This document shows, in pieces, positions 1,745 through 55,714 of a stretch of DNA of 64,000 nucleotides. Made by a program: the position numbers and the translations under genes. Where the stretch lies: NCBI GenBank assembly GCA_035760645.1, contig DASTSO010000119.1, positions 47,033-111,032 of the forward strand, read 5' to 3'. Source of the DNA: Gemmatimonadales bacterium. Lineage in GTDB: Bacteria > Gemmatimonadota > Gemmatimonadetes > Gemmatimonadales > GWC2-71-9. Within the stretch, counting starts at the first letter, position 1; each line of letters begins with the position of its first letter. The notes beneath the pieces are model-generated. The model was given only the letters and a program-made list of their open reading frames with translations. It was not told the origin of the DNA and made no database searches.

Positions 1745-2062
1745 TAGGGCGGTTGTAGATGGTCCTCTCCCCGATCCGGACCATAGCCCTAGCCTGGTTG
1801 CTCCCCCGCCGCGGGAAAGTCAAGAGCAAGACCCCGAGTTGCGCGGGTGAAGGGGCCTGTCCTGACGACGGGACGGTGGGCTGGCACGCAGTGCGTGGTG
1901 AAAGCGTGCCGACGAACGGCGCCGTGACCATGCTGTGCCTCCTAAGCGGAATGGCGAGTCGGAACCCGAAGGCTGTACCGCGCCCGTCCGTTTCGGCGGA
2001 TGTGGACTCAGCGGTCGGGGAATCTCGGGAGAGTCATCGCGCGGGAGGGCGATGAGCGAACT

Positions 2063-2076
2063 TAGGGATTTCCCTA
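2063..2076. promoter_or_regulatory. Perfect 6-2-6 palindrome TAGGGA-tt-TCCCTA in a locally AT-rich intergenic patch; candidate operator
   Basis: Read directly. It lies about 450 bp upstream of the metalloprotease gene and downstream of the sigma-54 activator gene. Confidence 0.3.
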
Positions 2077-2109
2077 GTACCGCGGCAATCGCTCGTTCTC
2101 ATATCTTGC

Positions 2110-2148
2110 AACTGCGGAGTTACTCAACATTACACTGATACCGCAGTT
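2110..2148. promoter_or_regulatory. 8-bp inverted repeat AACTGCGG-N23-CCGCAGTT in an AT-rich spacer; candidate regulator or enhancer-binding site
   Basis: Read directly. The surrounding 2040-2160 is much lower in GC than the rest of the window. Confidence 0.25.
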
Positions 2149-2520
2149 CTAGACCCCTCCATCACATTTCGCGGCTTCTCCGCCCCTTTCTGGCGGCGCT
2201 GACCCGGTGCGCAGCGGCTGGTGCGGAAAGCGCCTACGACGAGCTCGCTGCAGCCGATACGGCCAACACGTCGTCCGACGGGTGGTCGCGACATAGCACC
2301 AACACGATTCGGGGCTTCATCGGACCCCATGAGGGATACTCGAGGTTCGCCGCCGCGCGCTTCTCATCCTGAGGCGGTTGGGGCTCGTACCACAGACACG
2401 TTCTGGATGCACCGATACGAGAGTCAGACGCGGCTGGTGAACGGCGGAAACGGAGCCTCATTGAGATGCCTGTGTGCCTCGGGGGCTCCCCTCTCCATCT
2501 CTCCTCACGGGAGGTCACGC

Positions 2521-4365
2521 ATGCGTGGATGGCAGTCCTTCGGTTTCGTTGCACTCATGGCTGCGGGTGTTGCTTGTTCTGATAACTCGACTGCGCCTTC
2601 GGTCCAGAGTAACCAGCGGGCCATGAGCCCGAAGGTGAGGGAGGTTGGACCCTCTACCCAGGGCGGTGATCTGGAAACACGGCCACGGTTCACCGTGGAT
2701 GTGGAAGTCAGCGGGCACTTTGTGCCCGGCGGTCAGCTGCAGGTGCGACCCCGGATGACCGGATTGGTTGCCACGGCTGATGTTGAATTGCGGGTGACGC
2801 TACCGGAGCTCGAGGTTGCCGCGCGGCCCGACGGCTTCCACGGGGTCATCCCCACTGGGACGCCGCTGCCTGTGAGGGGGCATCGCCGCGCGCCTTTGTC
2901 GGCGGGGGCGAGCGTGGATGCGCCGTTCGCGCTTCGTGTGCCACAGCCCGGGTACTACCGGATTGTGGTGCAGGCGGTCAAACGGTCCGCCGAGCCCGAG
3001 CGCGAAGGCGGTATTTGGTATGAGAGTGGTGCGTCGATAGAGAAGTGGGTGCTTGTTGACACTGCGGGTGGGCGTCTCACGGACCGGTTCGATGCCTCGC
3101 TGCTACCTTCCGGGGCCGCACCCATGGCCGGGCCGTTTCGATCCAAGCGCTCCGGCGCCCTCCTGACCGCCGGGGGCGGTACCGAGGTCGTTCCGCTCCA
3201 GAAGTGCCAAGAGGACTGCATCCCAACCACAACCGTCTGCGTGAACTGGCACGCCGTCTACTACAACGAGGATGTGGGAGGGTACCAGCCGCTGAGCTTT
3301 GCTGCGGTAGAGGGCAGCCGCTACCATAGCGACGGCAGCTTCTTCGGCGCGATCTCGGGCCAGACGGACGCGAACGGCGTAGTGGTACTGTGCGCGACGG
3401 GCTATGACTACTACAGGGCGAACATCGTACTCAAGAATGCCGATGTGATCCAGGGGTCGATCGCGGCCAGCCTCGAGGGCAATGCGTATTGGGGTCCTGA
3501 CGAGACGGTGACAGCGGTGGATCATTACACGCCGCGTGCCTTCGTCGTACTGACCAACACCGCGCAAAAGTCACGCTCGATGCTGGGCTACGGCCGGCCG
3601 CAGACGCGCTTCATCCTGAGCAGTGCCGACTCGAATTCCTACTACAGCCCGTCGGATGACCGAATCGTGCTCAGGACGTCACACGTCTACTATCCCGGCG
3701 TATTCACGATGGCACACGAGTACGGCCATGCACTCCAGGAAAAGGGCCTTGGCGGGAACCCCTACCCGGACTACGGCGGAGCCTGTGGGAAGCCTCACTT
3801 TATGGATGGCGCATACACGCTTGGATGTGCGCTCTCCGAGGGATTTGCGAATTTCCATGCTGCATACGTCCAGGGTGACATCCTGACCTACGGGTTCGGT
3901 AGCGACTACGACATGGAGGACAACCGAGATTACCCAGGCTACTATTACAATGGGTACACGACGCTTGGAGTCGCCACGGACGGATCGCTAATCGAAGGGG
4001 CCGTGGCGGCGTTCCTTTACGATCTCGTCGACGGACCAAGTTCCCCGAACAGCGCGACCAACGGTCCCCGAGGGGTGGACGATGATGGCGTGACGCTGCC
4101 CGGGAGCTACATCGCGACCATCCTGTCCACATGCCAAACCCGGAGCTCGGGGTGGCTCGGATACCACCGAGCAAACGGGATTGACGACATCATTTATTGC
4201 ATGGAGAATCAGATCGATCCGGCCGTCACCGGTTCATCCGTGTACTTCCCGACGCGAGGCTCCGATCCGAACGCATTCACCGAGGGTGCCGCCGAGCCGG
4301 CCGGCTGGAGTGCAGCGGCGGTACGACGGCTTTGGACGCACAACCTCTACGGGGCATCGTGGTGA
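2521..4365 (+). CDS. Secreted zinc metalloprotease (HExxH), lipoprotein-type signal peptide
   Basis: ATG at 2521 is preceded by GGGAGG at -7. Signal peptide MRGWQSFGFVALMAAGVAC. Zincin motif TMAHEYGHALQE. The ORF-track start at 2221 adds a low-complexity Arg/Pro-rich extension and is rejected. Confidence 0.7.
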   Translation: MRGWQSFGFVALMAAGVACSDNSTAPSVQSNQRAMSPKVREVGPSTQGGDLETRPRFTVDVEVSGHFVPGGQLQVRPRMTGLVATADVELRVTLPELEVAARPDGFHGVIPTGTPLPVRGHRRAPLSAGASVDAPFALRVPQPGYYRIVVQAVKRSAEPEREGGIWYESGASIEKWVLVDTAGGRLTDRFDASLLPSGAAPMAGPFRSKRSGALLTAGGGTEVVPLQKCQEDCIPTTTVCVNWHAVYYNEDVGGYQPLSFAAVEGSRYHSDGSFFGAISGQTDANGVVVLCATGYDYYRANIVLKNADVIQGSIAASLEGNAYWGPDETVTAVDHYTPRAFVVLTNTAQKSRSMLGYGRPQTRFILSSADSNSYYSPSDDRIVLRTSHVYYPGVFTMAHEYGHALQEKGLGGNPYPDYGGACGKPHFMDGAYTLGCALSEGFANFHAAYVQGDILTYGFGSDYDMEDNRDYPGYYYNGYTTLGVATDGSLIEGAVAAFLYDLVDGPSSPNSATNGPRGVDDDGVTLPGSYIATILSTCQTRSSGWLGYHRANGIDDIIYCMENQIDPAVTGSSVYFPTRGSDPNAFTEGAAEPAGWSAAAVRRLWTHNLYGASW

Positions 4366-4489
4366 TTGTGGCCTCGGCCCTCCAAGTGTTCGGGGCTAAG
4401 AGGGCCCTGCGGGTCCCAGTCCTCGGGGTGACAAGGGTCCACCAGTCGCATTTCTGAATCCATCGTGGAAGGGTCTCCGGGAGAGTGCC

Positions 4490-4909
4490 ATGTCTCGACT
4501 CGGGTTACATGCAGTTCTGCTGGTTGGCATCGGATTCGGACTGGGTTGCTCGAGCAGCCCTACCAATCAGAGCACAAGCGCAGTGAACGCGTATGTCTTC
4601 GGCACGGTGTTGACCAGTAGCGGAATGCCGGTCGTTGGCGCTACAGTGGCAATCCATGCCGAGATCGATTCTCCGAATGGCCTCCGCCCCTACGCCGCTA
4701 AGACGGCGAGCACGGACGACAAGGGCCGCTATCACATGATTCTCAGTGCTCCGCAGGCTCCCCCTGCCGACGCGCAGCTGACCATTGAGGTGAGCCCTCC
4801 GTCGGGGGCGGCTCTGCAGCCGGTAACAGTTCGGGACCAAGTCGCCCGTTTTCGCGATGCGTTTCCGCCCGCGGATAGTCTCGAAGTGAATGTGACGCTG
4901 ACACCTTGA
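4490..4909 (+). CDS. Small lipoprotein with a carboxypeptidase-regulatory-like beta-sandwich
   Basis: Lipobox GFGLGCSS. VFGTVLTSSGMPVVGATVAIHAE is typical of CarbopepD_reg-like folds. RBS GGGAGAG. Confidence 0.55.
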   Translation: MSRLGLHAVLLVGIGFGLGCSSSPTNQSTSAVNAYVFGTVLTSSGMPVVGATVAIHAEIDSPNGLRPYAAKTASTDDKGRYHMILSAPQAPPADAQLTIEVSPPSGAALQPVTVRDQVARFRDAFPPADSLEVNVTLTP

Positions 4910-5201
4910 CGGTCCGACGCCTTCGGTCTCCTGACAACCAGCGGCTGCTCTGATGGGCATCATGTGGGGGCATCAACTTGCGGCTATCGTAGGGCCGGAC
5001 CGGTACGTATGACTCCTGCATGGCTACCGCATCGGCTCCGCCGGCGCAGCTGGAAGTGCGGCGGCTCCAGGCCATGCGGGACAGCGTGGATCATGTGATC
5101 CACGGCCGTGACGGTGAGATCCGCGAGAACAAGAGTTACGGCCACAACGCGCTGCTGTCGTGCGATCAGCGCTGAGGGAGACGTCAGGTGAGAACTGAAT
5201 G

Positions 5202-5230
5202 GAACCGCCGACCCCATAGGGCGGCGGTTC
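5202..5230. terminator. Strong hairpin GAACCGCCGACCCC-ATA-GGGCGGCGGTTC followed by TGTCTTG; candidate intrinsic terminator
   Basis: Stem of 12 bp with one bulge, followed by a U-rich stretch on the plus strand. It lies 27 bp after an unlisted 48-codon ORF (5029-5175). Confidence 0.4.
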
Positions 5231-5461
5231 TGTCTTGCGACCGGATGGGGGCGCTCCCGGCTACATGTCCGGGCTCTTCGCAAGGACTCGGATTCTGCGC
5301 CCATGGCGTTCGGTCGGTGCATTCCAGCCGCCTCGATCGAGCTGACCGTCTGCTATTCCCGCACGGTGCAACCTGGCGGGCGATAACACCGCGGGGACCT
5401 CGGCATGGCCGACGGGTCCCCGCATCGATCGGCTTGAACTATCTAGGAGACGAAGGCTGGC

Positions 5462-5788
5462 TCACGCCCGGTGAACCTCCCAGGCGAGATGGGTGATGCC
5501 CTTCGTCCGCAGCTTGTCCACCACGAGGACGAACTCATCCCAATCACTCTGGGTGAACACACGAGGGTCGGGCTTTCCCGTGCGGCCCATGCGGAGCCGA
5601 GGCAACAGCCAATCGATCGCGACGACGGTGTAGCCGGTGCCAAGGGTCACTTGGGCCACCTCACTGACGTCCACGAGCCAGAATTCGAGGGCGAAGGGGG
5701 CGAGGCTGTATACCGGGCGCAGCCCGGCCTCGACCGCAACGTCGGCGAGGAGCACCGCATTGAGGGCCAGCGGCGCGAGTTCGCTCAT
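5462..5788 (-). CDS. Hypothetical small protein (108 aa), downstream gene of the coupled pair
   Basis: ATG at 5788 is preceded by GGAGGTGG. The sequence MSELAPLALNAVLLADVAVEAGL...VVAIDWLLPRL is globular-looking. The longer ORF-track N-terminus is an Arg/Pro-rich artefact. Confidence 0.5.
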   Translation of the reverse strand: MSELAPLALNAVLLADVAVEAGLRPVYSLAPFALEFWLVDVSEVAQVTLGTGYTVVAIDWLLPRLRMGRTGKPDPRVFTQSDWDEFVLVVDKLRTKGITHLAWEVHRA

Positions 5789-6069
5789 GGAACCACCTCC
5801 GACTGGCCGAGCCCAGCCGGCGCCCCAGGAGCGGCCGCGCCCTCGAGGCGCTTCAGGAGACCCTGAAGTCCCTGATCGGGATCGGGCCCATGGAGCGCCT
5901 CCTCCAAGCGATTCAGCGCTTCGAGCACCCGGGGGACTGGGTACGGAAAGGAAACGTCCGGGTCGAGCATGAGCTTGATGAGGCAGTAGTGGTGGACCAC
6001 GAACGCGAGGAACTGCGCGTCGCGGCGCGGCAGGACGATGGTGTCGCGAGACCGGGTAGAAGCGGGCAT
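5785..6069 (-). CDS. Hypothetical small protein (94 aa), upstream gene of a two-gene coupled pair
   Basis: Start taken at M31 of the ORF-track entry. The stop TGA overlaps the ATG of the next gene (ATGA). The start is uncertain because no clear SD is present. Confidence 0.4.
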   Translation of the reverse strand: MPASTRSRDTIVLPRRDAQFLAFVVHHYCLIKLMLDPDVSFPYPVPRVLEALNRLEEALHGPDPDQGLQGLLKRLEGAAAPGAPAGLGQSEVVP

Positions 6070-6796
6070 GGAATATGTGTGGGAGGGAAGGGGACCGAGC
6101 GGGGAGGGAGGCGAGCATCGGTCGACCCGCAATACCGGTGGGGCGACCGGGGACATCATGTGAGAGCGCGGGCAGCGGGTGCAAGTGGGCGGGGCGGACT
6201 CAGAGGCGCAATCGCTTGGCTGGACCGACCCTGTTTGGCCAGATGAGTCTGCCCGCCTTCGAGGTGACCCCCAGGCGATCTAGCCGCCGCCGAGGTCGCA
6301 GCCCGCTGCGCGGCGGTGGTGCTTGCTCCCGCATGCGTCAACCGGAGTCCGCGCGAGTACCGTGCCCGGTGGGCGCAGGCGGCGCCGGCCGAATACACCT
6401 TCGGTCAGTTGGATGTCTCGCCCTCCGGGGCGCAATGGAGCTTGGGGGTGGGTACCGCCGGTGGACAGGAGGGGTAAGCGGGAGCATCCCGACGGCCGCG
6501 CTGGGTCCGGTCGTTCGCTGAGGCCTCTCCGTCTTTCTTACGAGAGCCGAGGCCGGTCGATGCCGCGAGCGGGTTTCACCTTGAGGGCTCCGCACCCCCG
6601 GATTTAGGCAATCGAGCCCGCAAAGGTGGCTGAGGCAGCCGTCACCATCCGGATATCGCCCCCGCTTTGAACCCCGGTCTGGCTCCTTGGCGAGCAGCAA
6701 ATCGCCAGTCCGGATTGCCGCGAGGCAAAGGGTGGTGTCAGCCCCGCCTCGTATATTCTCCATCACCCCCCCCACTCTCACCTCCCAGGAGCCCTC

Positions 6797-7351
6797 ATGC
6801 TGCTCAAGGCCGCTGCCTTGAAGGCCGTGGCGCTGTCCGCCATAGCCGCGACTGCGCTGGCTGCTGTTCTTCCCGAGCGCACCGTTATTGTGACGCAGCC
6901 TGGAAGTCCGATTCAGATCACGAAATATCAGGCGCACTACAACGAGGGGAACCGGTTTGTCGCGCGTGGCATCGCGCACATGGTCTCCTACACGAACACC
7001 TCGCCGAAGAAGGTGGTGGCGTTCCGGGTCGGCATCGTGTCGTTCAACGTGTTCGACGAGTTCCTCGGTCGCATGGGTGGCTACGCCACCGAGGATCTCG
7101 TCCCGAACAAGGGCGCCCCGGGTACCTGGACCCAGAACGTCTATGCCGGTTCCTCATTCCACACGGGCATTATGTACGTGGACAAGGTCCGCTTCGAGGA
7201 CGGGACAATGTGGGTCTCCGACAAGGCCCCGGTGCTCGAGGCGATCCGCCAACTCCAGAAGGATTTTGACTCCAAGCTCCTGGAGGAGCGCTTGAACCGC
7301 GAGGTTCCGGGCGGAGAGGCCGCCGGTGGCGCCGCTGCGGCGGGAGACTGA
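6797..7351 (+). CDS. Secreted hypothetical protein (signal peptide)
   Basis: RBS AGGAGCC. Signal peptide MLLKAAALKAVALSAIAATALAAV. Balanced amino-acid composition. Confidence 0.65.
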   Translation: MLLKAAALKAVALSAIAATALAAVLPERTVIVTQPGSPIQITKYQAHYNEGNRFVARGIAHMVSYTNTSPKKVVAFRVGIVSFNVFDEFLGRMGGYATEDLVPNKGAPGTWTQNVYAGSSFHTGIMYVDKVRFEDGTMWVSDKAPVLEAIRQLQKDFDSKLLEERLNREVPGGEAAGGAAAAGD

Positions 7352-7373
7352 CCGAGACCGCTTGAGTCGCTGT

Positions 7374-7420
7374 GTGCCGACGTCGGGGCTCTCTCGGGAG
7401 CCCCGACGTCGGCGCACAGT
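7374..7420. terminator. Bidirectional intrinsic terminator between convergent genes
   Basis: Stem GTGCCGACGTCGGGGCTC with its complement GAGCCCCGACGTCGGCGCAC, followed by AGTTCTACTT. Confidence 0.5.
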
Positions 7421-7477
7421 TCTACTTGCAGTGCCACGGGCGCCGGTTGATGGCAGCCTGGACGGCGTCGCACTGGG

Positions 7478-8188
7478 TTAGGGGTCCACCCCGGGCCGGG
7501 CAAGCAGGCTGTCGACCGGATAGTCCCAGACATAACCGCCGCCATGCACCGCGATATGCGTGATTCCGACCGCCCTGGCCGCCGTCGGAGTGAACGCGCT
7601 CCGGTTCCAGCCCTGCACCGACGCGTCACCGAGTTCGGCCTGGACGAAACTGCCACGCGCGTGACGCTCGGCGGATTCGAGGTCGGCAGCGTACCGGGTC
7701 GTGATGTCGAGCCGACGGGCGAGCGTGTCGCGCACGTAGACCACGTTCGCGCTGCCCCATTGGCGGTAGACCTGCGCGACCTGACGGGCGAAGGCGATCC
7801 GGCGCTGAATCCCACGGCTCGCCTCGTCGCTCACGGGTTGCCACAGAGTCCCCGCCGCATCACGAATCGCAATGTCCCACCGATGGCCGCCCCCCGGCCA
7901 CTGGATCTGGAGCTCCGTGAAGCCCCGCCGCTGCAGCTCCGGAATGGTGGTGAGCCCCTTCGGCTCGAGGTTGCCCGCGATCATCGCTGGCCGCACGCTG
8001 TCCAGGGGCCCGGTCGAGCCGTCCACTCCCGGCCCCTCCGGGCCGATGTCGAGTACGAGGCGCGTTACCTCCGCTCCGACCGCCCCCAGACGCCACGGCA
8101 TCCCGAGTTCCGCTGCCGCTTGTGCTCGCTTCATGAGGTAGTCGGCACGGCGCCGCCCCATCACTGTCTGAGCGCGGTGTCGTGCCAC
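7478..8188 (-). CDS. Hypothetical protein, probably a lipoprotein whose true N-terminus extends to about 8340
   Basis: The same frame upstream of the GTG at 8188 encodes ...IAAGALLVTTATLVTACGPSSESQQ, a lipobox followed by a linker. No ATG, GTG or TTG precedes it before the in-frame stop. Confidence 0.55.
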   Translation of the reverse strand: MARHRAQTVMGRRRADYLMKRAQAAAELGMPWRLGAVGAEVTRLVLDIGPEGPGVDGSTGPLDSVRPAMIAGNLEPKGLTTIPELQRRGFTELQIQWPGGGHRWDIAIRDAAGTLWQPVSDEASRGIQRRIAFARQVAQVYRQWGSANVVYVRDTLARRLDITTRYAADLESAERHARGSFVQAELGDASVQGWNRSAFTPTAARAVGITHIAVHGGGYVWDYPVDSLLARPGVDP

Positions 8189-8764
8189 GTCGGGCGGATA
8201 AATGAGGCTGTCGGCAGAGGGTAGCGCCGCAGGGCTTGAGGCGCCTGTCGGGGACCGCGCGGGCCGCTGCTGCGATTCGGAGCTAGGACCACAGGCCGTG
8301 ACGAGTGTGGCCGTCGTAACGAGGAGGGCCCCTGCGGCAATCGTCGGTAGCGGGGTAATCGACCGACACTTGGCCTCGAGCGGTATCTACATGTCGAGCG
8401 TCTCCTGGTTGGCAGCCGTCTGGTCGACGGCTGTCTATTGACGCATGGGGAGGCACGCCAGGCGGGGCACGTATAGGCAGGAAGGCGGCTGGCCCCGAGC
8501 GTCTTGGTGCTGGTCCGTTGCGGGGGCGCAGTGAGCGCGAGATGGTGGTGTGTGCCCAGCACGTGCCGGACCTCGCACGCGAGGTACTCCGCTCGACTAG
8601 CGTTGCTGGGCCACGTCCGAGCCCATAAAGCATTCCGTCACCGGCGCGGTGCTCGACGATGCAGGTGGTCCTACGAGCTCACTGGGAGGACGGGTTGCCT
8701 GCGTGCCTCATCAACTCCACTGCCCCCCGTCGGGGACACTCCGCGAACCGGGTGCATAACGGCG

Positions 8765-11700
8765 TCAGGAGACTCGCTTGCGCAGGGCGGCGGCGCCGGG
8801 GCAGCCGAGGCGAGCCATGGCCTCGCACACCTCTAGGAGCACCGCACGATCTGCCCGCGCGTCAATGAGCTCGCCCACGAGGGTCTCGAGGTCACCACAC
8901 TCCCAGCGCAGTTGCGTCGTGCCGGCGAGCACGTGCCGGAGCAGACACGCGACGGGCTCCGGCGCCGTGCGGGCGAGGCCTTCCTCGCGAAGCTCATAGA
9001 ACAGCATCGTGTGCTCGCCGAGGGTGATCGGCATCGCCACGAGGAGCTCCACGACCGCCGGCAGCACTGTCCGCAGGCCGAACACCCACTCGAGCATCGC
9101 CCGCCGTTCCTCCTCACTCAGCGGGCTCGGCACACCAGTAAGCCGGTCTCGCCAGTAATCGGCGAGCCAGCGAGTCCACGCCAACTCGGCCGCATCGGCG
9201 CTGAGCTCGCGGAGCTCCCGCCCCATCGCGGCGGCCCACGCCGTGTGCGTAGCGGGGTCGGCGTCCCGAATGAACCGCTCGAGCCAACCGCCGTGCCACG
9301 GATCGGCAGACGAGTAGAGCGCCACGCCAGCGAGTCGTCCCGCAAAGTCCTCGCGACGACGCTCAAGCGCGGAGCCTATCCGCTCGTACGTCTGCTCCAG
9401 GTAGGGCTGGAGCCGCTCGAAGAGCGCGTCGTTCCAGCGCCCCCACTGCAGGTAGCCGTCCCACGCGTGGGCGGCACGATCCTCGTCCACCGTCCAATCG
9501 AATAGCGGCAGCAGCTGGCGACCAGACCATTCCGGATCAAGCGCGTAGAGAAAGTGCGCTTGGCTCGCGAAGATGATCCGGGCCCGGTCCGCACCGACGG
9601 TCGGGACTTCCAGGACATGGTCGAGCCGGTCTCGCTCGGCCGGCGGCAGGCCGGTCCACTCGTCGCCGGCCGTGTTCCGAAGGGTCTCGAGCGTCTGGAG
9701 CCAGGCCATCGCTGCCCGTCCGGCCGGGTGGTTGATGGCCAGGAACAGCCAGTCGGGACCGTCGGAGGTGCTCACCGTGTCCCCGAGGTCGTCCCGGAGC
9801 GCGAGCCGCTCCGCCATGTCGCGCACCGTGTGGAGCAGGGCGGGCGGGGCGCCCCCGTCCCCCTTCGCCGCATGGTCGAGCAGAGACGACACCTCATACG
9901 GAAATGCGTGCTCGAGGTGGCGGTGGGTCTCGAGGAGTTGAAGCACGCGGCGCCACTGGAGTTCGTCGAGCGCGGCACCGCGCCACGCCTCCAGCACCGC
10001 GGGCCAGAGCCCGGCGTCCTCCGCCTCACCGTGGTCGCGGAGCGCCTCGGCGAGCTCCCAGGACCACTCAAACGAGGCCCTGCTGGCGTCCCGCACCACC
10101 TCCAGCAGCCCGTGGCGGTCCGGCCCTTCACCCGTGCGCTGGTCACCTTGATATGCGAGCAGCCAGCCGAGCTCGGCCCTCGGCGACAGGGCCAGGAGCT
10201 CGTCGACGCCGCGCGGGCTCACCGGGATGACCGGCTGCACGCCCGACGACCAGTGGGTCAGGTCCGGGTGCTCCCGCGGCTCGAGGTCCGGGGTAGCCGC
10301 CTTGGCAGCGGCGAGGCGGTCGACTGTGATGGCGGAGTCGGGGGCCGCACGGGCCAGCCAGACGAGCAGGTTGTAGCGCTCGTACGTCTCGATCCCGGTC
10401 TCCTCGGGCGTCGTCGGCGGTTGCTCGAGGACGGGCTGCACGAGTGCGGCATCGAGGAACGCTTGGCGGGTCGCCTCGTCGGCCGCGGCATACGCGCGCG
10501 CGAGCAGGCGGAACGTCTCGTGCTTGAGCGCTGAGTCGTGGAGCCAGCCGGCCGCGAGCACGTCGGCGAGTGCCTCCGCGGGCTGGTTCGGCGCGCGCTC
10601 GGCGAGGCCGTGGATCGCCAGGCGCTTCAGGAGTGGCGACGCCGCCTCCCGCCAGAGGGTGATCCAGGCATCGGCGACCTTCGGCTCCGCGGCCAAGAGG
10701 AACTCCAGCAGATCCCGCGCGGCATCGACCACGACATCGAGGCCCGAGGGATACGGATCCTGCGGGTGTGGCTCGATTGCCGACCGGCGGAAGCTCAGCG
10801 GGTCCCATACGCCGTCCGCGGTCCCGGCGGCGACAAGCAGCACGTGCGCGCGCGTGAGGCTCTCGGTGAGGAGCATGCCGACGGTGCGATGGCATCGCGG
10901 CAGCGCGGGTAGGAAGAGGCGCTGCCAGCTCTTGCGGAGGGTATGGTCGTCCCCGGTCGGGCCGATCGAGAAGCGAAGCCGTGGTGTGACACCGGCTCCG
11001 TCCAGCCCCGGCAGCGCCGGGCCCAGGCTAGAGACCGGAGCGATCAGGTGCCCGAGGAGGAGGAGGGCTCCGGCGAGTGCCTCGGGCGGGCAGCGCCCGA
11101 GGAGCTGGCTCAGGGGGCGGGCGTCCCACTGCGGGTTCCGCGTGGTCACGAGAACCGTGATCCATCGCATGAGGAGCTCGGGCTCCGGCAGCGGGTCCAC
11201 CGCCGCCAGGTGCCAGGCGAGGCTGCGCCAGCACTGGTGCCCGAGTTGGAGATGGTGGGCGCGCAGGAGATCGAGGAGCTCGCCCGAGTGCTCGAGCATG
11301 AAGCGCTCGGCGAGCCACTGGGCGAGCTCGGCCACGGCGCCCGGGTCTGCAGTCGGTGCATTCCCGAAGAGCGGCTCGAGGACGCCGGCGTCGGCAGCGA
11401 ACGTGAGCCAGGCCGGGACGCTCGCGTGCCGCACGAAGAACGGGCGCTGGACCGGGTCGGCGAGCGCCCGCCGCAGGTAATCGACGTCGCGTCGCTCGAT
11501 CGGCGGGGCGACGCTGACCAGCGTGCGGATCCGATGCTCGTGGTCCAGCGCACCCATCGTGGCGAGGTTCGCCCAGGCCTCGAGAGCATCGCTCAAGGCG
11601 CCGTGATCCCGTGGGGCGCGGAGCGGATAGTGGACCGGCCGGATGCCGAGCTCCGCCCAGCGCGCGTCGCTACCCGGAGTCGTCAACGCGAAGCGGGCGG

Positions 11701-12346
11701 TCCCGGGCACCAGGCTCCGTGCCAGATAGCGCATCGTCGGATCGCCGTGGCTGTAGCCCACAAAGCAGACGGTGTTGTGCAGGAACAGCTCGAGCAGCAG
11801 GCGGGTGGCCCACCCCTCTGTCAGGTAGGCACGACCGAAGTCGGCGTCGGTGAGCACGAGCGGGTGGTGGGCTATATCCAGCGCGCCGTGTACGTGGATC
11901 AGGCCACGGGCCTGGCGCCCTAAGGGGAGCGCCGGCGCCGTGTACAGGGGGGCCGCGCCCGCACCGTGGCGGTCGGTGATCACGGTCGCGAAGTGCCGAT
12001 CGAAGTTCGTGGTGACGATCCGGATCCGATCCGGAGCCCCGAAGAGCCGCACGATCGCCTCGTGCATCGGGGTCGGCTTCGACGACGCCACGTCGAGCAA
12101 CTGGCGCGTGCGGCCCTGCACATCCACCCCGCGGTGCTCCGCGCGGCCGAGGTACTGGTCGAGGGGCTCTCCCGCCGTGGGAGCCCCGATCGCGGTCTCC
12201 GCGACCTGTCTGGCAAGCCGCTCGAAATCCGGGAGGTTCGAGGGAGAGCCCATGGAGACGCCGGCGCCGGCGAACACAACGAGGCGCCCCTCTTGGAGCG
12301 CCTCGAGCAGATCGTCGGGAAGGTCCACCTCGGTCGTGACGAACAC
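8765..12346 (-). CDS. Large SIR2-like domain protein (N-terminal SIR2_2-type NADase fold, helical C-terminus of about 850 aa); candidate DSR-like antiphage effector
   Basis: GTG start. Rossmann loop VVFAGAGVSMGS. Catalytic-region motifs IVTTNFDRHF and LIHVHGALD, then VLTDADFGRAYL and CFVGYSHGDP. These are the motifs that define the SIR2 family. No HerA, TIR or Argonaute partner is adjacent. Confidence 0.8.
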   Translation of the reverse strand: MFVTTEVDLPDDLLEALQEGRLVVFAGAGVSMGSPSNLPDFERLARQVAETAIGAPTAGEPLDQYLGRAEHRGVDVQGRTRQLLDVASSKPTPMHEAIVRLFGAPDRIRIVTTNFDRHFATVITDRHGAGAAPLYTAPALPLGRQARGLIHVHGALDIAHHPLVLTDADFGRAYLTEGWATRLLLELFLHNTVCFVGYSHGDPTMRYLARSLVPGTARFALTTPGSDARWAELGIRPVHYPLRAPRDHGALSDALEAWANLATMGALDHEHRIRTLVSVAPPIERRDVDYLRRALADPVQRPFFVRHASVPAWLTFAADAGVLEPLFGNAPTADPGAVAELAQWLAERFMLEHSGELLDLLRAHHLQLGHQCWRSLAWHLAAVDPLPEPELLMRWITVLVTTRNPQWDARPLSQLLGRCPPEALAGALLLLGHLIAPVSSLGPALPGLDGAGVTPRLRFSIGPTGDDHTLRKSWQRLFLPALPRCHRTVGMLLTESLTRAHVLLVAAGTADGVWDPLSFRRSAIEPHPQDPYPSGLDVVVDAARDLLEFLLAAEPKVADAWITLWREAASPLLKRLAIHGLAERAPNQPAEALADVLAAGWLHDSALKHETFRLLARAYAAADEATRQAFLDAALVQPVLEQPPTTPEETGIETYERYNLLVWLARAAPDSAITVDRLAAAKAATPDLEPREHPDLTHWSSGVQPVIPVSPRGVDELLALSPRAELGWLLAYQGDQRTGEGPDRHGLLEVVRDASRASFEWSWELAEALRDHGEAEDAGLWPAVLEAWRGAALDELQWRRVLQLLETHRHLEHAFPYEVSSLLDHAAKGDGGAPPALLHTVRDMAERLALRDDLGDTVSTSDGPDWLFLAINHPAGRAAMAWLQTLETLRNTAGDEWTGLPPAERDRLDHVLEVPTVGADRARIIFASQAHFLYALDPEWSGRQLLPLFDWTVDEDRAAHAWDGYLQWGRWNDALFERLQPYLEQTYERIGSALERRREDFAGRLAGVALYSSADPWHGGWLERFIRDADPATHTAWAAAMGRELRELSADAAELAWTRWLADYWRDRLTGVPSPLSEEERRAMLEWVFGLRTVLPAVVELLVAMPITLGEHTMLFYELREEGLARTAPEPVACLLRHVLAGTTQLRWECGDLETLVGELIDARADRAVLLEVCEAMARLGCPGAAALRKRVS

Positions 12347-13003
12347 GCACGGAATCTATCTGCCCCCGAGACCTTGGCTAGCCGAAGCCCCCGGCCCGCG
12401 AAGCGGGCCGCCTCTAGACGTGCCGGATGGCAGCTGCCGAGGAACTGAAGCGGAAAACACCCGGCAGGTTGACGCGGGAACAGGCGAGAGCGTGAGCCGA
12501 GCGGCCCCTCGCGGCCGCAAGGATGGCTCGGGCTCGGTCGCCACTAGCGGAGCAGCCGGACCCCGTCGCGGCGGACGCGCTCCTGGCGCGGATGCCTCGA
12601 GCAACCCTCAGGGCAGGGGCAAGTCCGAGCTGCCCCGATTCGACGAGGGGAGCCCGGAGCAATCGGTGCTGGTCGGCACGCTCGCTGCCGAGGAAGCCAC
12701 TCCTCCGCGCCCTCCCAGCAGCAGGCGGTCCGGTGTTAGCATTTCCGTGGGTCGTTTCAGAGTCGGCTACGGGACGTGCGCTCAGTCGCCGGTACCGGAC
12801 CTTGGGTCGCGACACTGCCCTTCGCCGGCTGGGGTACCGGTGGGACTCGCCCTCAATCTGCCGTCCGAATGTGCCCGGAGCGAGTGCCGGGCCGAGCCCC
12901 TAGCCGAGTGACAAGTGACAGCGCGATGGCCACCGGTGGCCCGTCGAAGTCTCCTCTAAACGCTTGGTATTAGTGGCCATCGGAAATGGGCGCCCGTCGG
13001 CGA

Positions 13004-13049
13004 AAGGTCTGCAAAACCTCCATCACCGGTTCGACTCCGGTCGGCGCCT
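13004..13049 (+). tRNA. tRNA-Cys(GCA) 3' remnant: anticodon arm through T-arm, acceptor 3' strand and U73, with no D-arm; pseudo-tRNA or att-site core
   Basis: Anticodon arm AAGGT-CTGCAAA-ACCTC carries GCA with U33 and A37. T-arm ACCGG-TTCGACT-CCGGT, then CGGCGCC and discriminator T. A possible 5' acceptor GGCGCCC sits at 12989-12995, but only 8 nt separate it from the anticodon stem. Confidence 0.5.
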
Positions 13050-13423
13050 CTCGATTTCGCATCAGCCCAACCGCCCGTGCCAGAGCTACCTGGCACGGGC
13101 GGTTGGCGCGTTCAGCCCCCGCGAGTCTCACTCCGCGAGTGACAGGATGAGTGACGAGACGCGGACCGCCCGACAGGCCGTGCCTGGGCGCGATGGCCCT
13201 GGGCGGTCTCGCTGGGCGCTGCGGGTGCACGGCGCCTCCACGGATGTGGTGGCGGGGCGGTCGGGGCGGGAGCCTCCCGCGGTGTCACGGATGCCTCTCA
13301 TCGCACGTCATGCTGGTGCAGAGCAGGTTCGATCCGCTTCATCTCGTAGCGCGACTCGGAGCGCGCCGTGTGCCGTCGTGCGCGACGGACGACCGGGAGC
13401 TTCTTCACCGAAAGGGGAACAGC

Positions 13424-50341: not shown

Positions 50342-50451
50342 GACACGCTCCCTGCACCAGCCCCACCCGGCCGCCCCCGCGCGATGGCGTCCGCGCGCGG
50401 AGCGGCATACCTTCGTGTCTTCCCTGCATAGGTAAGACGCTCCCGATCCCG

Positions 50452-51438
50452 ATGCAACCTCCGCCGTCACCGACATCCGCGCCCGCGGCCCCCGCGGCGC
50501 TGCTCGATCCCGCCGCCCTCGCCGCGGCGCTCGCCGCGCGGCTGCCGGCCGCGCCGCGCACGCGCTTCGCGCCGAGTCCGACGGGCTACCTGCACCTGGG
50601 CCACGTGGCCAACGCGGTCTGGGTCTGGGGCCTTGCGCGCGCGCTCGGCGGGCGCGTGCTGCTCCGGCTGGAGGACCACGACCGCGGCCGCTGCCGCCCC
50701 GAGTACGAGGCGGCGCTCCTCGACGACCTCGACTGGCTCGGCCTCCTGCCCGACGAGCCGGCGACCGATCACTTCCGCACGGGCGCGCCCTCGCCCTATC
50801 GCCAGAGCGACAACGACGCGGTCTACGACGCGGCGCTCGCGCGGCTCGCCGGCGCGTACGCGGTGTATGCCTGCGCCTGCTCGCGACGGGAGATCGCGCG
50901 GCTGGTCCCCACCGCGGCCCACGCGGAGCCGCACTACCCGGGCACCTGCCGCACGCGCGGGCTCGCGCGCGAGGCGGGCCGCGGCGTGCGCCTCGTGCTC
51001 GCGCCGGGGGAGGAGCGGTTCGTGGACGGCGTCGTGGGCGCGCAGGCGCAGGCGCCGGCCGAGCAGTGCGGCGATCTCCTGCTGCGCGACCGGCTGGGGC
51101 AGTGGACCTATCAGTTCGCCGTCGTGGTGGACGACCTGCGGCACGGCGTGGACCTCGTCGTCCGCGGGCAGGACCTCCTCGCGTCCACCGGTCGCCAGAT
51201 CCGCCTGGCCCGCATGCTGGGGCGGGACGCGCCGCCGGTGTTCGCGCACCACCCGCTCATCCTCAAGCCCTCGGGCGACAAGCTCAGCAAGGCGAGCGGC
51301 GACACCGCGCTGCGCGAGCTGCGGGCCGCCGGCGCCACGCCCGAGCGGGTGCTCGGCGAAGCGGCGTGGCGCACGGGGCTGCTCGCGGCGATGCGGCCGG
51401 TGGAGGCGGGGGAGGTGGGAGTGCTGTTCAGGGGCTAG
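50452..51438 (+). CDS. gluQ: Glutamyl-Q tRNA(Asp) synthetase (truncated GluRS paralog)
   Basis: HIGH motif RFAPSPTGYLHLGH. KMSKS-like KLSKASGD. No anticodon-binding domain. Confidence 0.85.
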   Translation: MQPPPSPTSAPAAPAALLDPAALAAALAARLPAAPRTRFAPSPTGYLHLGHVANAVWVWGLARALGGRVLLRLEDHDRGRCRPEYEAALLDDLDWLGLLPDEPATDHFRTGAPSPYRQSDNDAVYDAALARLAGAYAVYACACSRREIARLVPTAAHAEPHYPGTCRTRGLAREAGRGVRLVLAPGEERFVDGVVGAQAQAPAEQCGDLLLRDRLGQWTYQFAVVVDDLRHGVDLVVRGQDLLASTGRQIRLARMLGRDAPPVFAHHPLILKPSGDKLSKASGDTALRELRAAGATPERVLGEAAWRTGLLAAMRPVEAGEVGVLFRG

Positions 51439-51463
51439 CCCCTAGCCCCTAGCCCCTGCTCCC

Positions 51464-53359: not shown

Positions 53360-53483
53360 GGGGATCCTCGAAGGGGGAAGGGTGACGTGTCCGCACTCTC
53401 GGACGGTCGGGGACCCGAAAAAGTTGCGGGCGGTCAGGAAGCATCTCCGGACCGCCCGCACCCGCTGAACCGACCGCGACCGC

Positions 53484-55115
53484 CTAGTTACGCCGCACCG
53501 ACTCCACCAGCGGCGCCACCGGATCGTCGCCCTTCGCCGGGGTCTCGCCGCCGTTGGCGGCGGCGGGCGCGGCGGACACCGTCGGCGCGGGCGTCTCCGG
53601 CGTCATCGTGCCCATGAAGGCGGGGAGGTCCACGCCGGCCACGTCGCGCAGCACCTGCATCATCGGGGGCATCGCGCGGGTGAGGCCCTGGACGAAGCCC
53701 GCGGTGCCGCCGACGCCGTTGAGGCTCCCGTTGCCGCCCTCCCAGACGACGACCTTGTCGAGCTTGATGTTCGAGATCGCCTTGGCCGCGGAATCCATGA
53801 GCAGGGGCATCTGCTCGACCATCTGGAGCATGAACGCCTCGCGCGCGCCGCCGGCCTGCTCGACCATCTGGCCCATCGCCTCGGCCTTCTTGGCGAGGAT
53901 CTCGTACTCGCCGCGCGCCTGCGCCTCGAGGCGGGCGTAGGTGGCGCGCGCCTCCGCCTCGGCCGCGATCCGCACCCGCTCGGCCTCGGCCTCGGCCTCG
54001 ACGATCTTCTTCGCCTTCTCGGCCTTGGCCGGCGCCTCGAGCGCCGCGCGCTTCTCGGCCTCGACGCGGTCGGCCTCGGCCAGCGCGGCCTTCGCCAGCG
54101 CGCGGTTCTGCGCCTCCTGCACCGCGGCCTCCGCCTCGCGCTTGCGCGTCTCGGCCGTCTGATAGGCCTCGGCCTTCTTCACCTGCAGCGTCGCCTGGGT
54201 CGCGACCACCTGCGCCTGCGACTCCGCCTCGCCCGCGATCGCCTTCGCCTCGGCCTGCGCCACGGCGACGCGCTTCAGCTGCTCGGCCTCCTTGATGTGC
54301 GCCTCCGCCTGGAAGGCGGCCGTCTGCTCGCCGATGCGCTGCTCGCGCTCGAGCTCGGCGACGCGCACCGCCTGCTCGCGCACGTTCTCACGGAGCGCGA
54401 TCTCGCGGTCCTTCGCCGCCGTGGCGACCTGGACCGCCTTCTCCCGCTCGTTCTCCGCCACGCGGATCTCGCCCAGCTTCTCCTGCTCGGCCACGTCGCC
54501 GCGGGCCTGCTGCACCGCCTGGCTCGCCGCCTTGCGGCCGATCGCCTCGATGTAGCCCGAGTCGTCCTTGAGGTCGGTGATGTTCACGTTGATGAGCACC
54601 AGGCCGACCTTCTTGAGCTCCGGCTCGAGCGAGTTCTGGATCTTGTGCAGGAAGGCGTCGCGGTCGCGGTTGATCTGCTCGATCGTCATCGAGGCGATCA
54701 CCTGGCGCAGCTGGCCGAAGATGATGTCCTGCGCCGTCTTCACGATCTCGTCGTGAGTGAGCCCCAGGAGCCGGACCGCCGCGTTCTGCTGCAGCTCGTG
54801 GTCGGTGCCGATCGCCACGGTGAAGACGCTGGGCACGGCGACGCGGATGTTCTCGAACGAGAGCGCGTCGCGCAGCGGGATGTTGATCTGGATCGGCACC
54901 AGGTCGAGATAGGCGAACTCCTGGATCACCGGCCACACGAAGGCGCCGCCGCCCGAGATCGTCTTCGCGGCGTTGCCGCCGCCCACCTTGCCCGAGATGA
55001 CGAGCAGCTTGTTCGCCGGGCAGCGCCGGTAGCGGGAGGCGAAGAAGAGGATCATCCCGAGGACCAGCGCGACCAGCAGCGCAGCGCCCGCCACGACGGG
55101 AAGGAAGTCAGGCAT
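53484..55115 (-). CDS. Flotillin (SPFH/band-7 family)
   Basis: N-terminal TM, then the SPFH domain, then long Ala/Glu-rich coiled-coil repeats (EAEAE). Confidence 0.85.
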   Translation of the reverse strand: MPDFLPVVAGAALLVALVLGMILFFASRYRRCPANKLLVISGKVGGGNAAKTISGGGAFVWPVIQEFAYLDLVPIQINIPLRDALSFENIRVAVPSVFTVAIGTDHELQQNAAVRLLGLTHDEIVKTAQDIIFGQLRQVIASMTIEQINRDRDAFLHKIQNSLEPELKKVGLVLINVNITDLKDDSGYIEAIGRKAASQAVQQARGDVAEQEKLGEIRVAENEREKAVQVATAAKDREIALRENVREQAVRVAELEREQRIGEQTAAFQAEAHIKEAEQLKRVAVAQAEAKAIAGEAESQAQVVATQATLQVKKAEAYQTAETRKREAEAAVQEAQNRALAKAALAEADRVEAEKRAALEAPAKAEKAKKIVEAEAEAERVRIAAEAEARATYARLEAQARGEYEILAKKAEAMGQMVEQAGGAREAFMLQMVEQMPLLMDSAAKAISNIKLDKVVVWEGGNGSLNGVGGTAGFVQGLTRAMPPMMQVLRDVAGVDLPAFMGTMTPETPAPTVSAAPAAANGGETPAKGDDPVAPLVESVRRN

Positions 55116-55698: not shown

Positions 55699-55714
55699 CG
55701 CGGGCGCCTGCGCC

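What the first reader, a model, noticed from the sequence alone, without database searches (positions are those of the whole stretch)
12989..13049. D-arm-less tRNA-Cys(GCA) 3' fragment: probable integrase attachment-site remnant
The sequence AAGGT-CTGCAAA-ACCTC / CATC / ACCGG-TTCGACT-CCGGT / CGGCGCC-T reproduces the anticodon arm (GCA anticodon, U33, A37), T-arm, acceptor 3' strand and U73 discriminator of bacterial tRNA-Cys. Its T-arm is identical to that of E. coli tRNA-Cys.

Only 8 nt separate a possible 5' acceptor strand from the anticodon stem, so no D-arm can form. Such 3' tRNA copies are what site-specific integrases leave at the distal end of tRNA-inserted islands.

The fragment is on the plus strand, so the island would lie to its left, where the SIR2 gene is. 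No intact tRNA-Cys or integrase is visible in the window. The left boundary is therefore unresolved, and the element may be an old, decayed insertion.
Basis: partly seen in the sequence, partly recalled or inferred. Interest (0 to 1): 0.6.

Follow-up and report, generated by a model that had tools for sequence, protein, structure and literature searches.

The report
Leftover tRNA-Cys tail marking island edge
This is a 45-base leftover copy of the back half of the cysteine tRNA gene, of the ordinary kind left at the far edge of a block of foreign DNA (here carrying an anti-phage gene) that inserted into a tRNA gene. It is not a working tRNA.

Summary
Window 13005-13049 (+) matches, 45 of 45 bases, the 3' part (standard positions 28-73) of the tRNA-Cys(GCA) gene that is invariant across Gemmatimonadales, the order this MAG contig belongs to. 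Identity stops at position 27. The D-arm and true 5' half are absent from the whole window. ARAGORN and Rfam call no tRNA. The "possible 5' acceptor strand" (GGCGCC, 12989-12994) is within chance.

- The fragment keeps a native-type terminator hairpin and downstream gene order seen next to intact tRNA-Cys in relatives.
- DNA to its left is lower in GC (0.67 against 0.745) and carries a DSR1-type SIR2 defence gene.
- The closest homologues of that gene sit in tRNA-bounded islands elsewhere.
- Three other 3' tRNA fragments break at the same sublocation, and one has its intact partner and an integrase-like ORF 16 kb away.

Not shown: the intact partner tRNA-Cys and the integrase. Neither lies within the 13 kb to the left, and the rest of the contig could not be fetched. 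"Old and decayed" is not supported, since the fragment has no substitutions. This is an ordinary feature of low interest.

The parts
13005..13049 (+). Displaced 3' fragment of tRNA-Cys(GCA): 4 nt of the 5' strand of the anticodon stem, the anticodon loop, the 3' strand of the stem, the variable loop, the T-arm, the 3' acceptor strand and discriminator U73 (standard positions 28-73). Putative attR core.
   Evidence: 45/45 identical to the 71-nt gene found unchanged in 80 of 118 loci. Unique in the window. Not called as a tRNA.
12989..13004 (+). Junction on the island side. GGCGCCC plus 8 nt plus A, unrelated to the D-arm or 5' half of tRNA-Cys. The GGCGCC that can pair with the 3' acceptor strand is a chance match.
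   Evidence: Alignment with intact genes. GGCGCC frequency. Pairing null test p = 0.40. The 61-nt fold has z = -1.24.
13065..13109 (+). Strong hairpin (17 uninterrupted G+C-rich pairs, 13067-13083 with 13090-13106) starting 16 nt after the fragment. Read as the native terminator of the original tRNA-Cys transcription unit; it has no T-run.
   Evidence: -47.4 kcal/mol, z = -8.25. 62 of 77 Gemmatimonad loci have a stem of at least 8 pairs within 90 nt downstream of the intact tRNA-Cys. The consensus terminator scan finds none, because there is no T-tract.
8765..12346 (-). DSR1-type defence gene (N-terminal SIR2_2, C-terminal DUF4020; 1193 aa). Its start faces the fragment across 642 nt of non-coding DNA. 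Putative island cargo next to attR.
   Evidence: Pfam SIR2_2 3.5e-16 and DUF4020 2.7e-06. PADLOC Dsr1 1.9e-62. Identical to NCBI protein P0121. Homologues lie in tRNA-bounded islands.
1745..8764 (.). Low-GC accessory segment (GC 0.649), the putative island interior. It holds a 714-aa lipoprotein-like ORF with an HEYGH motif (2221-4365), a small CarboxypepD_reg lipoprotein (4490-4909) and other short secreted-protein-like ORFs. No recombinase is present.
   Evidence: Composition. Pfam on ORFs and on all 88 stop-to-stop frames of at least 60 aa: no integrase, transposase or excisionase domain. No match in the phage or plasmid collections.
13424..14575 (+). Alpha/beta hydrolase, the first gene on the chromosomal (right) side of the fragment.
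   Evidence: Pfam Abhydrolase_1 8.6e-19. 100% identical to NCBI P0001 from a Gemmatimonadales MAG.
50344..60473 (.). Housekeeping block (GluQ-tRNA-synthetase-like, M61 peptidase, SDF symporter, transaldolase, transketolase). In at least 14 relatives it lies 1-6 kb downstream of the intact tRNA-Cys, in the same order and orientation as here. It marks the right side of the fragment as the ancestral downstream flank.
   Evidence: blastn and tblastn against tRNA-Cys loci. Pfam.

Best explanation
The 45-nt stretch is the original 3' part of the chromosomal tRNA-Cys gene, displaced when a mobile island integrated into that gene.

Proposed mechanism: a tyrosine integrase recombined an element-borne attP, carrying a copy of tRNA-Cys positions 28-73, with the chromosomal gene. 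Strand exchange took place in the anticodon stem-loop. The 5' part of the gene was joined to the element's copy, keeping a working tRNA at the near end of the island (attL, expected beyond the left edge of the window). The old 3' part, with its terminator hairpin and downstream genes, was left at the far end (attR). The DNA to the left, including a DSR1-type SIR2 anti-phage gene, is island cargo. The fragment itself has no function of its own other than as a possible excision site.

Shown: the identity and exact extent of the fragment; the absence of any 5' half; the native-type 3' flank; and the association of the cargo gene with tRNA-bounded islands elsewhere.

Inferred: the integrase, the intact partner copy and the recombination event.
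For: 1. Extent. Identity to the order-wide tRNA-Cys is 45/45 and stops at position 27/28, inside the 5' strand of the anticodon stem. Three other 3' tRNA fragments start at the same sublocation: L017 at position 29 and L070 at position 30, and L123 at the anticodon loop of a CAU tRNA. In Islander, 3760 of 3919 mapped islands have a 3' tDNA fragment, and 2083 have an anticodon-centred attP (PMC4383910, read). Partial tRNA genes of about 44 bp are described there as attR sites (PMC9897764).

2. Worked example. On contig CAVXHM010000001.1 an intact tRNA-Cys (L099 587-659) is followed 212 nt later by an ORF with a Phage_int_SAM_3 domain. About 16 kb further on, on the same strand, lies the 3' fragment (L017 714-754).

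3. Right side is native. The hairpin has z = -8.25 and resembles the stems downstream of intact tRNA-Cys in 62 of 77 relatives. Genes found 1-6 kb (L090: 3 kb) downstream of the intact tRNA-Cys in relatives lie to the right of the fragment, in the same order and orientation.

4. Left side looks acquired. GC is 0.674 (0.649 for 1745-8764) against 0.745 +/- 0.028 to the right. No gene from the left 13 kb occurs near tRNA-Cys in any of 118 loci. The upstream gene conserved in 31 relatives is absent.

5. Cargo. The DSR1 gene has its closest homologues in tRNA-bounded islands.
- L123 (78% aa identity) lies 1.4 kb from a tRNA 3' fragment, in the mirror-image arrangement, with an HTH_17 gene at the far end.
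- L126 (65%) lies 3 kb from a PF00589 integrase abutting tRNA-Ser.
- Only the ORF itself is shared between these loci and the window.
Against: - No intact tRNA-Cys, no 5' half and no second copy of the core lie anywhere in the 64-kb window.
- No integrase, excisionase or transposase domain occurs in any reading frame of at least 60 aa between 1609 and 13139. Any island must therefore exceed 13 kb or have lost its recombination module.
- The leftmost genes are a secretin with GC3 of 0.94 and a sigma-54 activator. They look host-like in codon use, and the sharpest GC drop begins only at about 1750-2000, where no tRNA lies.
- Integrases are not common next to tRNA-Cys in this order. None appeared among the 25 most frequent of 88 Pfam families (those listed) hit by the first downstream ORFs of 60 loci.
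- The distance from the fragment to the conserved housekeeping block is 37 kb, against 1-6 kb in relatives. The locus has therefore had further rearrangement that this model does not explain.
Confidence: 0.74

Rival explanations
1. Dead remnant of the ancestral tRNA-Cys gene, destroyed by a non-site-specific event. An insertion, deletion or rearrangement would have cut the gene in the anticodon stem with no integrase involved, and the working tRNA-Cys would be supplied by another copy elsewhere.
For: The fragment sits where the ancestral gene should be relative to downstream genes. No integrase or partner copy lies in the 13 kb to the left. An IS transposase is nearby at 15916-16605. Upstream contexts of tRNA-Cys vary among relatives. 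Integrases are rare next to tRNA-Cys in this order.
Against: The cut falls within 3 nt of the start points of three independent fragments, one of which has a proven partner. A random break would not do this. tRNA-Cys appears to be single-copy in these genomes: the only Gemmatimonad genomes with two hits are explained by overlapping contigs or duplicate haplotypes. Destroying it without regeneration should then be lethal (inference). The missing 5' half is nowhere in the window.
Confidence: 0.15
2. A functional D-arm-less tRNA-like RNA (acceptor stem, anticodon arm and T-arm). It would be expressed and used either in translation or as a decoy or regulator linked to the neighbouring defence gene.
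For: GGCGCC at 12989-12994 can form 6 pairs with the 3' acceptor strand. The Rfam tRNA-Sec model aligns end to end at 24.1 bits, E = 0.022. The anticodon loop, T-arm and U73 are perfect.
Against: - It scores below every tRNA threshold.
- The fold is no better than shuffled sequence (z = -1.24), and the minimum-energy structure does not form the T-arm.
- No promoter-like site was found.
- The pairing 5' strand is within chance and is not enriched in the other three fragments.
- Positions 27-43 form an A-C mismatch.
- No other sequence with GGCGCC 4-14 nt upstream of this 3' half exists in the JGI metagenome collection, so there is nothing to show conservation.
Confidence: 0.03
3. Assembly artefact: a chimeric join of two populations at the conserved tRNA-Cys sequence in a metagenome assembly.
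For: The contig comes from a MAG. In another MAG, contigs break at tRNA-Cys (L054 and L081). The tRNA is identical across many species.
Against: A join through the shared 71-nt gene would keep the whole gene, not truncate it at position 28. The 45-nt shared stretch is shorter than the final k-mer sizes seen in the related assembly contig names (k127, k141). The same kind of fragment occurs in independent assemblies, including long-read ones.
Confidence: 0.03

Closest known systems
Displaced 3' tDNA fragments (attR) of tyrosine-integrase genomic islands, anticodon-centred ('A') attP class, as catalogued in Islander (PMC4383910; sublocation classes from Williams 2002, cited there, paper itself not held)
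   Same: A 3' fragment in the same orientation as the tRNA. It starts in the anticodon stem, runs to the discriminator, abuts the native downstream flank on one side and compositionally foreign cargo on the other, and is about 45 nt long.
   Different: The two other items Islander requires, the intact cognate tDNA and a PF00589 integrase between the two copies, are not seen. If present they lie more than 13 kb away, outside the window.
PYG1 island of Pyrococcus yayanosii and similar partial tRNA genes discussed in PMC9897764
   Same: A partial tRNA gene copy of about 44 bp at one end of a roughly 9-23 kb insertion. Such copies can be mistaken for an odd tRNA gene.
   Different: There both copies and the island limits are known, and tRNAscan-SE even calls the fragments as tRNAs. 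Here ARAGORN and Rfam call nothing, and only one end is visible.
tRNA-Cys island in Actinomycetes MAG contig CAVXHM010000001.1
   Same: The same tRNA isoacceptor and the same kind of repeat (positions 29-74 there, 28-73 here). The fragment lies downstream, on the same strand as the intact gene.
   Different: It is in a different phylum, its tRNA sequence differs in the anticodon stem and variable loop, and its partner copy and an integrase-like N-terminal domain are visible 16 kb away.
DSR1 (defence-associated sirtuin 1) single-gene anti-phage systems (PADLOC model Dsr1)
   Same: The neighbouring 1193-aa gene has an N-terminal SIR2_2 domain, a C-terminal DUF4020 and matches two Dsr1 profiles (1.9e-62 and 1.8e-54).
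   Different: Only sequence membership was tested, and the best-matching stretches cover only the first ~320 residues of ~1250-position profiles. DSR1 is context for the finding, not the finding itself.
D-arm-less mitochondrial tRNAs of nematodes and other metazoa (from my own knowledge)
   Same: A superficial three-arm outline with a short connector in place of the D-arm.
   Different: Those are transcribed, conserved, aminoacylated gene products with dedicated partner proteins. Here there is no conservation, no detectable promoter and no fold signal, and the 5' strand is within chance.

Membership tests
Displaced 3' tDNA fragment (attR) of an integrase-borne genomic island | Sequence identical or nearly identical to the 3' part of a genuine tRNA gene of the host, with the 5' part lacking | tested here: met
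   45/45 identity to the tRNA-Cys gene that is invariant in 80 loci of the same order. The 5' half is absent. The host's own intact copy was not available, so the comparison is with the order-wide consensus.
Displaced 3' tDNA fragment (attR) of an integrase-borne genomic island | Fragment begins at a recognised integrase crossover sublocation (anticodon loop/stem or T-loop/acceptor junction) | tested here: met
   Identity starts at position 28, in the 5' strand of the anticodon stem. Fragments L017, L070 and L123 start at the same sublocation. The class definition is taken from PMC4383910.
Displaced 3' tDNA fragment (attR) of an integrase-borne genomic island | Intact cognate tRNA gene on the same replicon, same orientation, on the 5' side of the fragment | not testable with these tools
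   None within the 13 kb available to the left. The contig is 111,032 nt, but the MAG is not indexed for retrieval.
Displaced 3' tDNA fragment (attR) of an integrase-borne genomic island | Tyrosine integrase gene (PF00589) between the intact tDNA and the fragment | tested here: inconclusive
   No integrase domain in any ORF or stop-to-stop frame of at least 60 aa between 1609 and 13139. The near (attL) end, where integrase genes usually lie, is outside the window.
Displaced 3' tDNA fragment (attR) of an integrase-borne genomic island | Distal side of the fragment is the native chromosomal flank of the tRNA gene | tested here: met
   A terminator-type hairpin like those in relatives. Downstream genes are collinear with those downstream of the intact tRNA-Cys in L090 and at least 14 other loci.
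Displaced 3' tDNA fragment (attR) of an integrase-borne genomic island | Proximal side is acquired DNA (atypical composition, accessory or defence cargo, absent from relatives) | tested here: met
   GC is 0.674 against 0.745. A DSR1 defence gene is present. No homologue of the left-side genes lies near tRNA-Cys in 118 loci. Caveat: the secretin gene at 3-764 has host-like GC3.
Functional tRNA gene (including D-arm-less forms) | Detected by tRNA covariance or heuristic models, with all helices formed | tested here: not met
   ARAGORN finds 0 genes. Rfam finds nothing at gathering score, and the best hit is 24.1 bits against a cutoff of 47. Positions 27-43 mismatch. The minimum-energy fold lacks the T-arm.
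Functional tRNA gene (including D-arm-less forms) | Conservation of the same architecture in related genomes | tested here: not met
   0 matches in JGI metagenomes for a GGCGCC 5' strand 4-14 nt upstream of this 3' half. All 80 other Gemmatimonad-type hits are full-length genes.
DSR1 defence system (neighbouring gene 8765-12346) | Single large protein with an N-terminal SIR2 domain that matches DSR1 profiles | tested here: met
   Pfam SIR2_2 and DUF4020. PADLOC Dsr1 1.9e-62 and 1.8e-54. Function was not tested.

The most novel reading that the evidence does not exclude
The junction could be more than a scar. The island-borne arm might supply a 5' strand that, with the tRNA-Cys 3' half, encodes a D-arm-less mini-tRNA-like RNA expressed next to the DSR1 defence gene, for example as a decoy or sensor. 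Alternatively, this lineage might have lost its canonical tRNA-Cys locus altogether. My evidence does not strictly exclude either, because the rest of the genome and any transcript data are unavailable.
Probability: 0.03. Interest if true: 0.6.

Novelty: new member of a known kind. Interest (0 to 1): 0.15.

Why it matters
It matters little beyond annotation. The fragment marks one edge of an acquired segment in an uncultured Gemmatimonadales genome. It also flags tRNA-Cys as an integration site used in this order and in soil Actinomycetota, with the crossover at the anticodon stem-loop. It adds one more case of a DSR1 sirtuin defence gene travelling as cargo at the far end of islands that sit beside tRNA genes or tRNA fragments of different identities (Cys here, a CAU tRNA in L123, Ser in L126). 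For genome annotation it shows that such fragments should be labelled as attR scars and not as tRNA pseudogenes or unusual tRNAs.

Tried and rejected
1. Finding the partner copy. Exact-protein look-ups failed for four window proteins, including three confirmed identical to NCBI entries (P0001, P0121, P0241). The source MAG is not in that index.

2. Finding an empty site or the same junction elsewhere. Two metagenome scans gave 0 hits: one for a D-arm-less pattern that includes the window's own junction, one for the 3' end plus downstream flank. A viral-contig scan for the 41-mer gave 0 hits. The phage and plasmid collections had no match to 1745-8764, and the fragment found only generic tRNA similarity in phages.

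3. A degenerate 5' half of the tRNA at the low-GC boundary (GGCGCCGTGACCATGC at 1918) or at 12894. Both are at chance level: 14 sites in the window match at 12 or more of 16 positions, and 15 sites score at least 18 of 30. Rejected.

4. The 5' acceptor-like strand as a shared feature of attR junctions. A null test on four fragments gave p = 0.40, 0.69, 0.99 and 0.68. Rejected.

5. Integrase search. Pfam was run on ORFs and on every frame of the left 11 kb. jackhmmer and phmmer were run with the L126 integrase against all six-frame ORFs of the window and the loci. Nothing was found in the window.

6. tRNA-Cys as a frequent integrase hot spot in Gemmatimonadales. The first downstream ORFs of 60 loci hit 88 Pfam families, and no integrase family is among the 25 listed. 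Not supported. The downstream neighbourhood is variable, but not visibly through integrases.

7. Close orthologues of the sigma-54 activator, to fix the left boundary. The best is 56% identical, which is uninformative.

8. Synteny through the hydrolase. The closest contigs (L001-L004) are short and carry no tRNA.

Full report
**Source.** The window is high-GC DNA. Three of its proteins are 100% identical to NCBI entries from a third-party-annotated 'Gemmatimonadales bacterium' MAG, on a contig of 111,032 nt: the hydrolase (P0001), the SIR2 protein (P0121) and the sigma-54 activator (P0241).

**The observation.** ARAGORN finds no tRNA or tmRNA in the 64 kb. Rfam finds nothing at gathering scores. 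A permissive Rfam scan of 12700-13300 gives only a sub-threshold tRNA-Sec alignment at 12988-13049 (24.1 bits against a cutoff of 47, E = 0.022), in which the D-arm and variable arm are collapsed.

To learn what the real tRNA-Cys of this lineage looks like, I scanned one genome per species for a pattern covering the anticodon loop to the discriminator. The scan stopped at its limit with 118 loci, mostly Gemmatimonadales plus Gaiellales/Thermoleophilia.
- 80 loci carry one identical 71-nt gene: GGCGCCGTAGCCAAGTGGTAAGGCAGAGGTCTGCAAAACCTCCATCACCGGTTCGACTCCGGTCGGCGCCT.
- Window 13005-13049 equals its last 45 nt without a mismatch.
- The next base upstream differs (A for G27), and nothing further upstream resembles the D-arm.

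This is the anticodon arm (minus its first base), variable loop, T-arm, 3' acceptor strand and U73 of the genuine tRNA-Cys of this order, with no 5' half. The fragment is unique in the window. The 5' half is absent at up to 3 mismatches and in an ungapped scan.

**The 'D-arm-less tRNA' aspect.** The GGCGCC that could pair with the 3' acceptor strand is a palindromic hexamer present 153 times in the window.
- In a null test, a 7-mer giving at least 6 of 7 pairs within reach occurs at 40% of random positions. The other three tRNA fragments I found show no such strand.
- The 61-nt RNA folds no better than shuffled sequence (z = -1.24), and its minimum-energy structure does not form the T-arm.
- No promoter-like site is present.
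- No sequence with a GGCGCC 5' strand 4-14 nt upstream of this 3' half exists in the JGI metagenome collection.

I therefore treat it as a plain 3' fragment.

**What lies to the right.** Sixteen bases after the fragment starts a hairpin with 17 uninterrupted pairs (-47.4 kcal/mol, z = -8.25). In 62 of 77 Gemmatimonad loci the intact tRNA-Cys is followed within 90 nt by a stem of at least 8 pairs. The fragment therefore seems to have kept the native terminator.

Further right, the genes have host-typical GC (0.745 +/- 0.028) and ordinary metabolic functions. None of the ORFs scanned between 13 and 55 kb has an integrase domain.
- In L090, the tRNA-Cys locus most similar to the window at the DNA level (74% over 1.5 kb), the intact tRNA-Cys lies 3 kb upstream of homologues of window genes 27685-29469.
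- In at least 14 more distant genomes it lies 1-6 kb upstream of a block homologous to window 50344-60473: a GluQ-synthetase-like gene, M61 peptidase, SDF symporter, transaldolase and transketolase.
- In every case the order and orientation match the window.

The right side of the fragment is thus the ancestral downstream flank of tRNA-Cys. This lineage holds about 37 kb between the two where relatives hold a few kb.

**What lies to the left.** After 642 nt of non-coding DNA comes the start of a 1193-aa gene on the minus strand. It has SIR2_2 and DUF4020 domains and matches the PADLOC Dsr1 profiles (1.9e-62).
- Beyond it, 1745-8764 has GC 0.649. It encodes a 714-aa lipoprotein-like ORF with an HEYGH motif and several short secreted-protein-like ORFs.
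- The first 1.7 kb encode the end of a secretin and a short sigma-54 activator.
- No gene of this left part occurs near tRNA-Cys in any of the 118 loci.
- An upstream gene shared by 31 relatives has no orthologue in the window.
- No integrase, excisionase or transposase domain occurs in any ORF or any stop-to-stop frame of at least 60 aa between 1609 and 13139.

**Comparative support for the integration reading.**

1. The break point. Besides the window, the scan returned two fragments without a 5' half, L017 and L070, whose identity to their own tRNA-Cys begins at positions 29 and 30. A fourth fragment, from a CAU-anticodon tRNA in L123, begins at the anticodon loop. Four independent fragments starting within a few bases of one another is what integrases that cross over in the anticodon stem-loop produce. 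In the Islander survey, 3760 of 3919 islands have a 3' tDNA fragment and 2083 have an anticodon-centred attP (PMC4383910). Partial tRNA genes of about 44 bp are described as attR sites in PMC9897764.

2. A complete example. On contig CAVXHM010000001.1 an intact tRNA-Cys (L099 587-659) is followed after 212 nt by an ORF with a phage-integrase SAM-like N-terminal domain. About 16 kb downstream, on the same strand, lies the L017 fragment.

3. The cargo.
- The nearest homologue of the DSR1 gene (L123, 78% aa) lies 1.4 kb from the tRNA(CAU) 3' fragment. Its start faces the fragment, as in the window. A toxin-antitoxin pair lies between them, and an HTH_17 gene lies at the far end of the contig.
- The 65% homologue (L126) lies 3 kb from a PF00589 integrase that abuts a tRNA-Ser.
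- The 70% homologue (L125) sits among other defence-type genes with no tRNA in 12 kb.
- Only the DSR1 reading frame itself is shared between these loci and the window.

**Mechanism.** An element carrying a copy of tRNA-Cys positions 28-73 in its attP recombined with the chromosomal gene by a tyrosine integrase, with strand exchange at the anticodon stem-loop.
- The regenerated gene stayed at the near end of the island.
- The original 3' part, its terminator and the downstream chromosome were displaced to the far end, which is what we see.

Shown: the fragment's identity and limits, its native right flank, its atypical left flank, and the parallels elsewhere. Inferred: the integrase, the partner copy and the event itself.

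**Weak points.**
- The partner tRNA-Cys and the integrase are not within 13 kb.
- The secretin gene at the left edge has host-like codon use (GC3 0.94), and the sharpest GC drop begins near 1750-2000, where there is no tRNA.
- Integrases are not a common neighbour of tRNA-Cys in this order.

The main rival is a non-site-specific disruption of the ancestral gene with a working copy elsewhere. I rate it at about 0.15. It is weakened by the coincidence of break points and by tRNA-Cys being apparently single-copy. A functional mini-tRNA and an assembly chimera are each at about 0.03. 'Old and decayed' is not supported for the fragment itself, which has no substitution in 45 nt, although the absence of a nearby recombination module allows an eroded or composite island.

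**Comparison with the known, and verdict.** This is a member of a very well known kind: the displaced 3' tDNA fragment marking the distal end of a tRNA-inserted island. It meets four of the six membership criteria I listed. The other two, the intact cognate gene and the integrase, were respectively untestable and inconclusive here. It is a new instance in an uncultured lineage, not a new kind. Interest is low (0.15). Its practical value is as an annotation landmark, and as one more case of DSR1 carried at the far end of islands that sit beside different tRNA genes.

Noticed in passing
window 18976-19167, 27508-27699, 38241-38432: A ~192-nt intergenic repeat family (61-81% identity). It contains tandem 14-nt units CAGGGGCCGACTCG, with three or more units at 19127-19184. 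It looks like a REP/MITE-type dispersed element.
   Followed up: no
window 13050-50344: About 37 kb of host-like genes separates the tRNA-Cys site from the GluQ-synthetase/M61/SDF/transaldolase/transketolase block. In at least 14 relatives that block lies only 1-6 kb downstream of the tRNA-Cys. The neighbourhood downstream of tRNA-Cys is highly variable across the order (88 Pfam families among 60 first-downstream ORFs), with no integrase family among the 25 listed.
   Followed up: partly
window 15916-16605: An ORF with a DDE_Tnp_1 transposase domain (229 aa) lies 3 kb right of the fragment, running into a LysE-type transporter ORF (16536-17102). It is possibly a truncated IS.
   Followed up: no
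window 2221-4365: A 714-aa ORF in the lowest-GC part of the window has a lipoprotein-type N-terminus (…VALMAAGVAC…) and an HEYGH zinc-protease-like motif. It matches no Pfam or PADLOC model.
   Followed up: no
window 13151-14575: The hydrolase is annotated at NCBI as 335 aa (start 13568). The frame is open from 13151, and a signal-peptide-like N-terminus with a good ribosome-binding site starts at GTG 13424 (383 aa). Close homologues are 370-375 aa and are preceded by a SnoaL-like gene that is missing here.
   Followed up: partly
L123 6418-6472 (- strand): A second tRNA 3' fragment (CAU anticodon loop, T-arm, 3' acceptor; Rfam tRNA 18.6 bits; not called by ARAGORN). It lies 1.4 kb from the 78%-identical DSR1 homologue, with a PrlF/YhaV toxin-antitoxin pair between them. 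Homology to the window covers only the DSR1 reading frame, which suggests the gene moves as a cassette between islands that sit beside different tRNAs.
   Followed up: partly
L126 15492-17065: A 495-aa PF00589 integrase gene ends exactly where a full-length tRNA-Ser(TGA) begins, on the same strand, 36 nt from the contig end. The island with the DSR1 homologue therefore lies on the 5' side of this tRNA, which is unusual geometry for a 3'-end integration.
   Followed up: no
L099 3500-6500: A 3-kb stretch with GC 0.19-0.38 and AT skew 0.6-0.7 sits inside the 16-kb tRNA-Cys island of a ~65% GC actinomycete long-read MAG. It may be an assembly or base-calling artefact, or very unusual A-rich DNA.
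   Followed up: no
L054 1-73 and L081 1-109: Two contigs of the same Gemmatimonadales MAG (GcA5-1) both end at the tRNA-Cys gene and share the same downstream 68 nt. The assembly breaks at the tRNA, as expected if strains differ in what follows or precedes it.
   Followed up: no
118 tRNA-Cys loci (L005-L122): The 71-nt tRNA-Cys gene is base-for-base identical in 80 loci from many Gemmatimonadales species. It does not encode the CCA end (…GGCGCCT followed mostly by CT…).
   Followed up: partly
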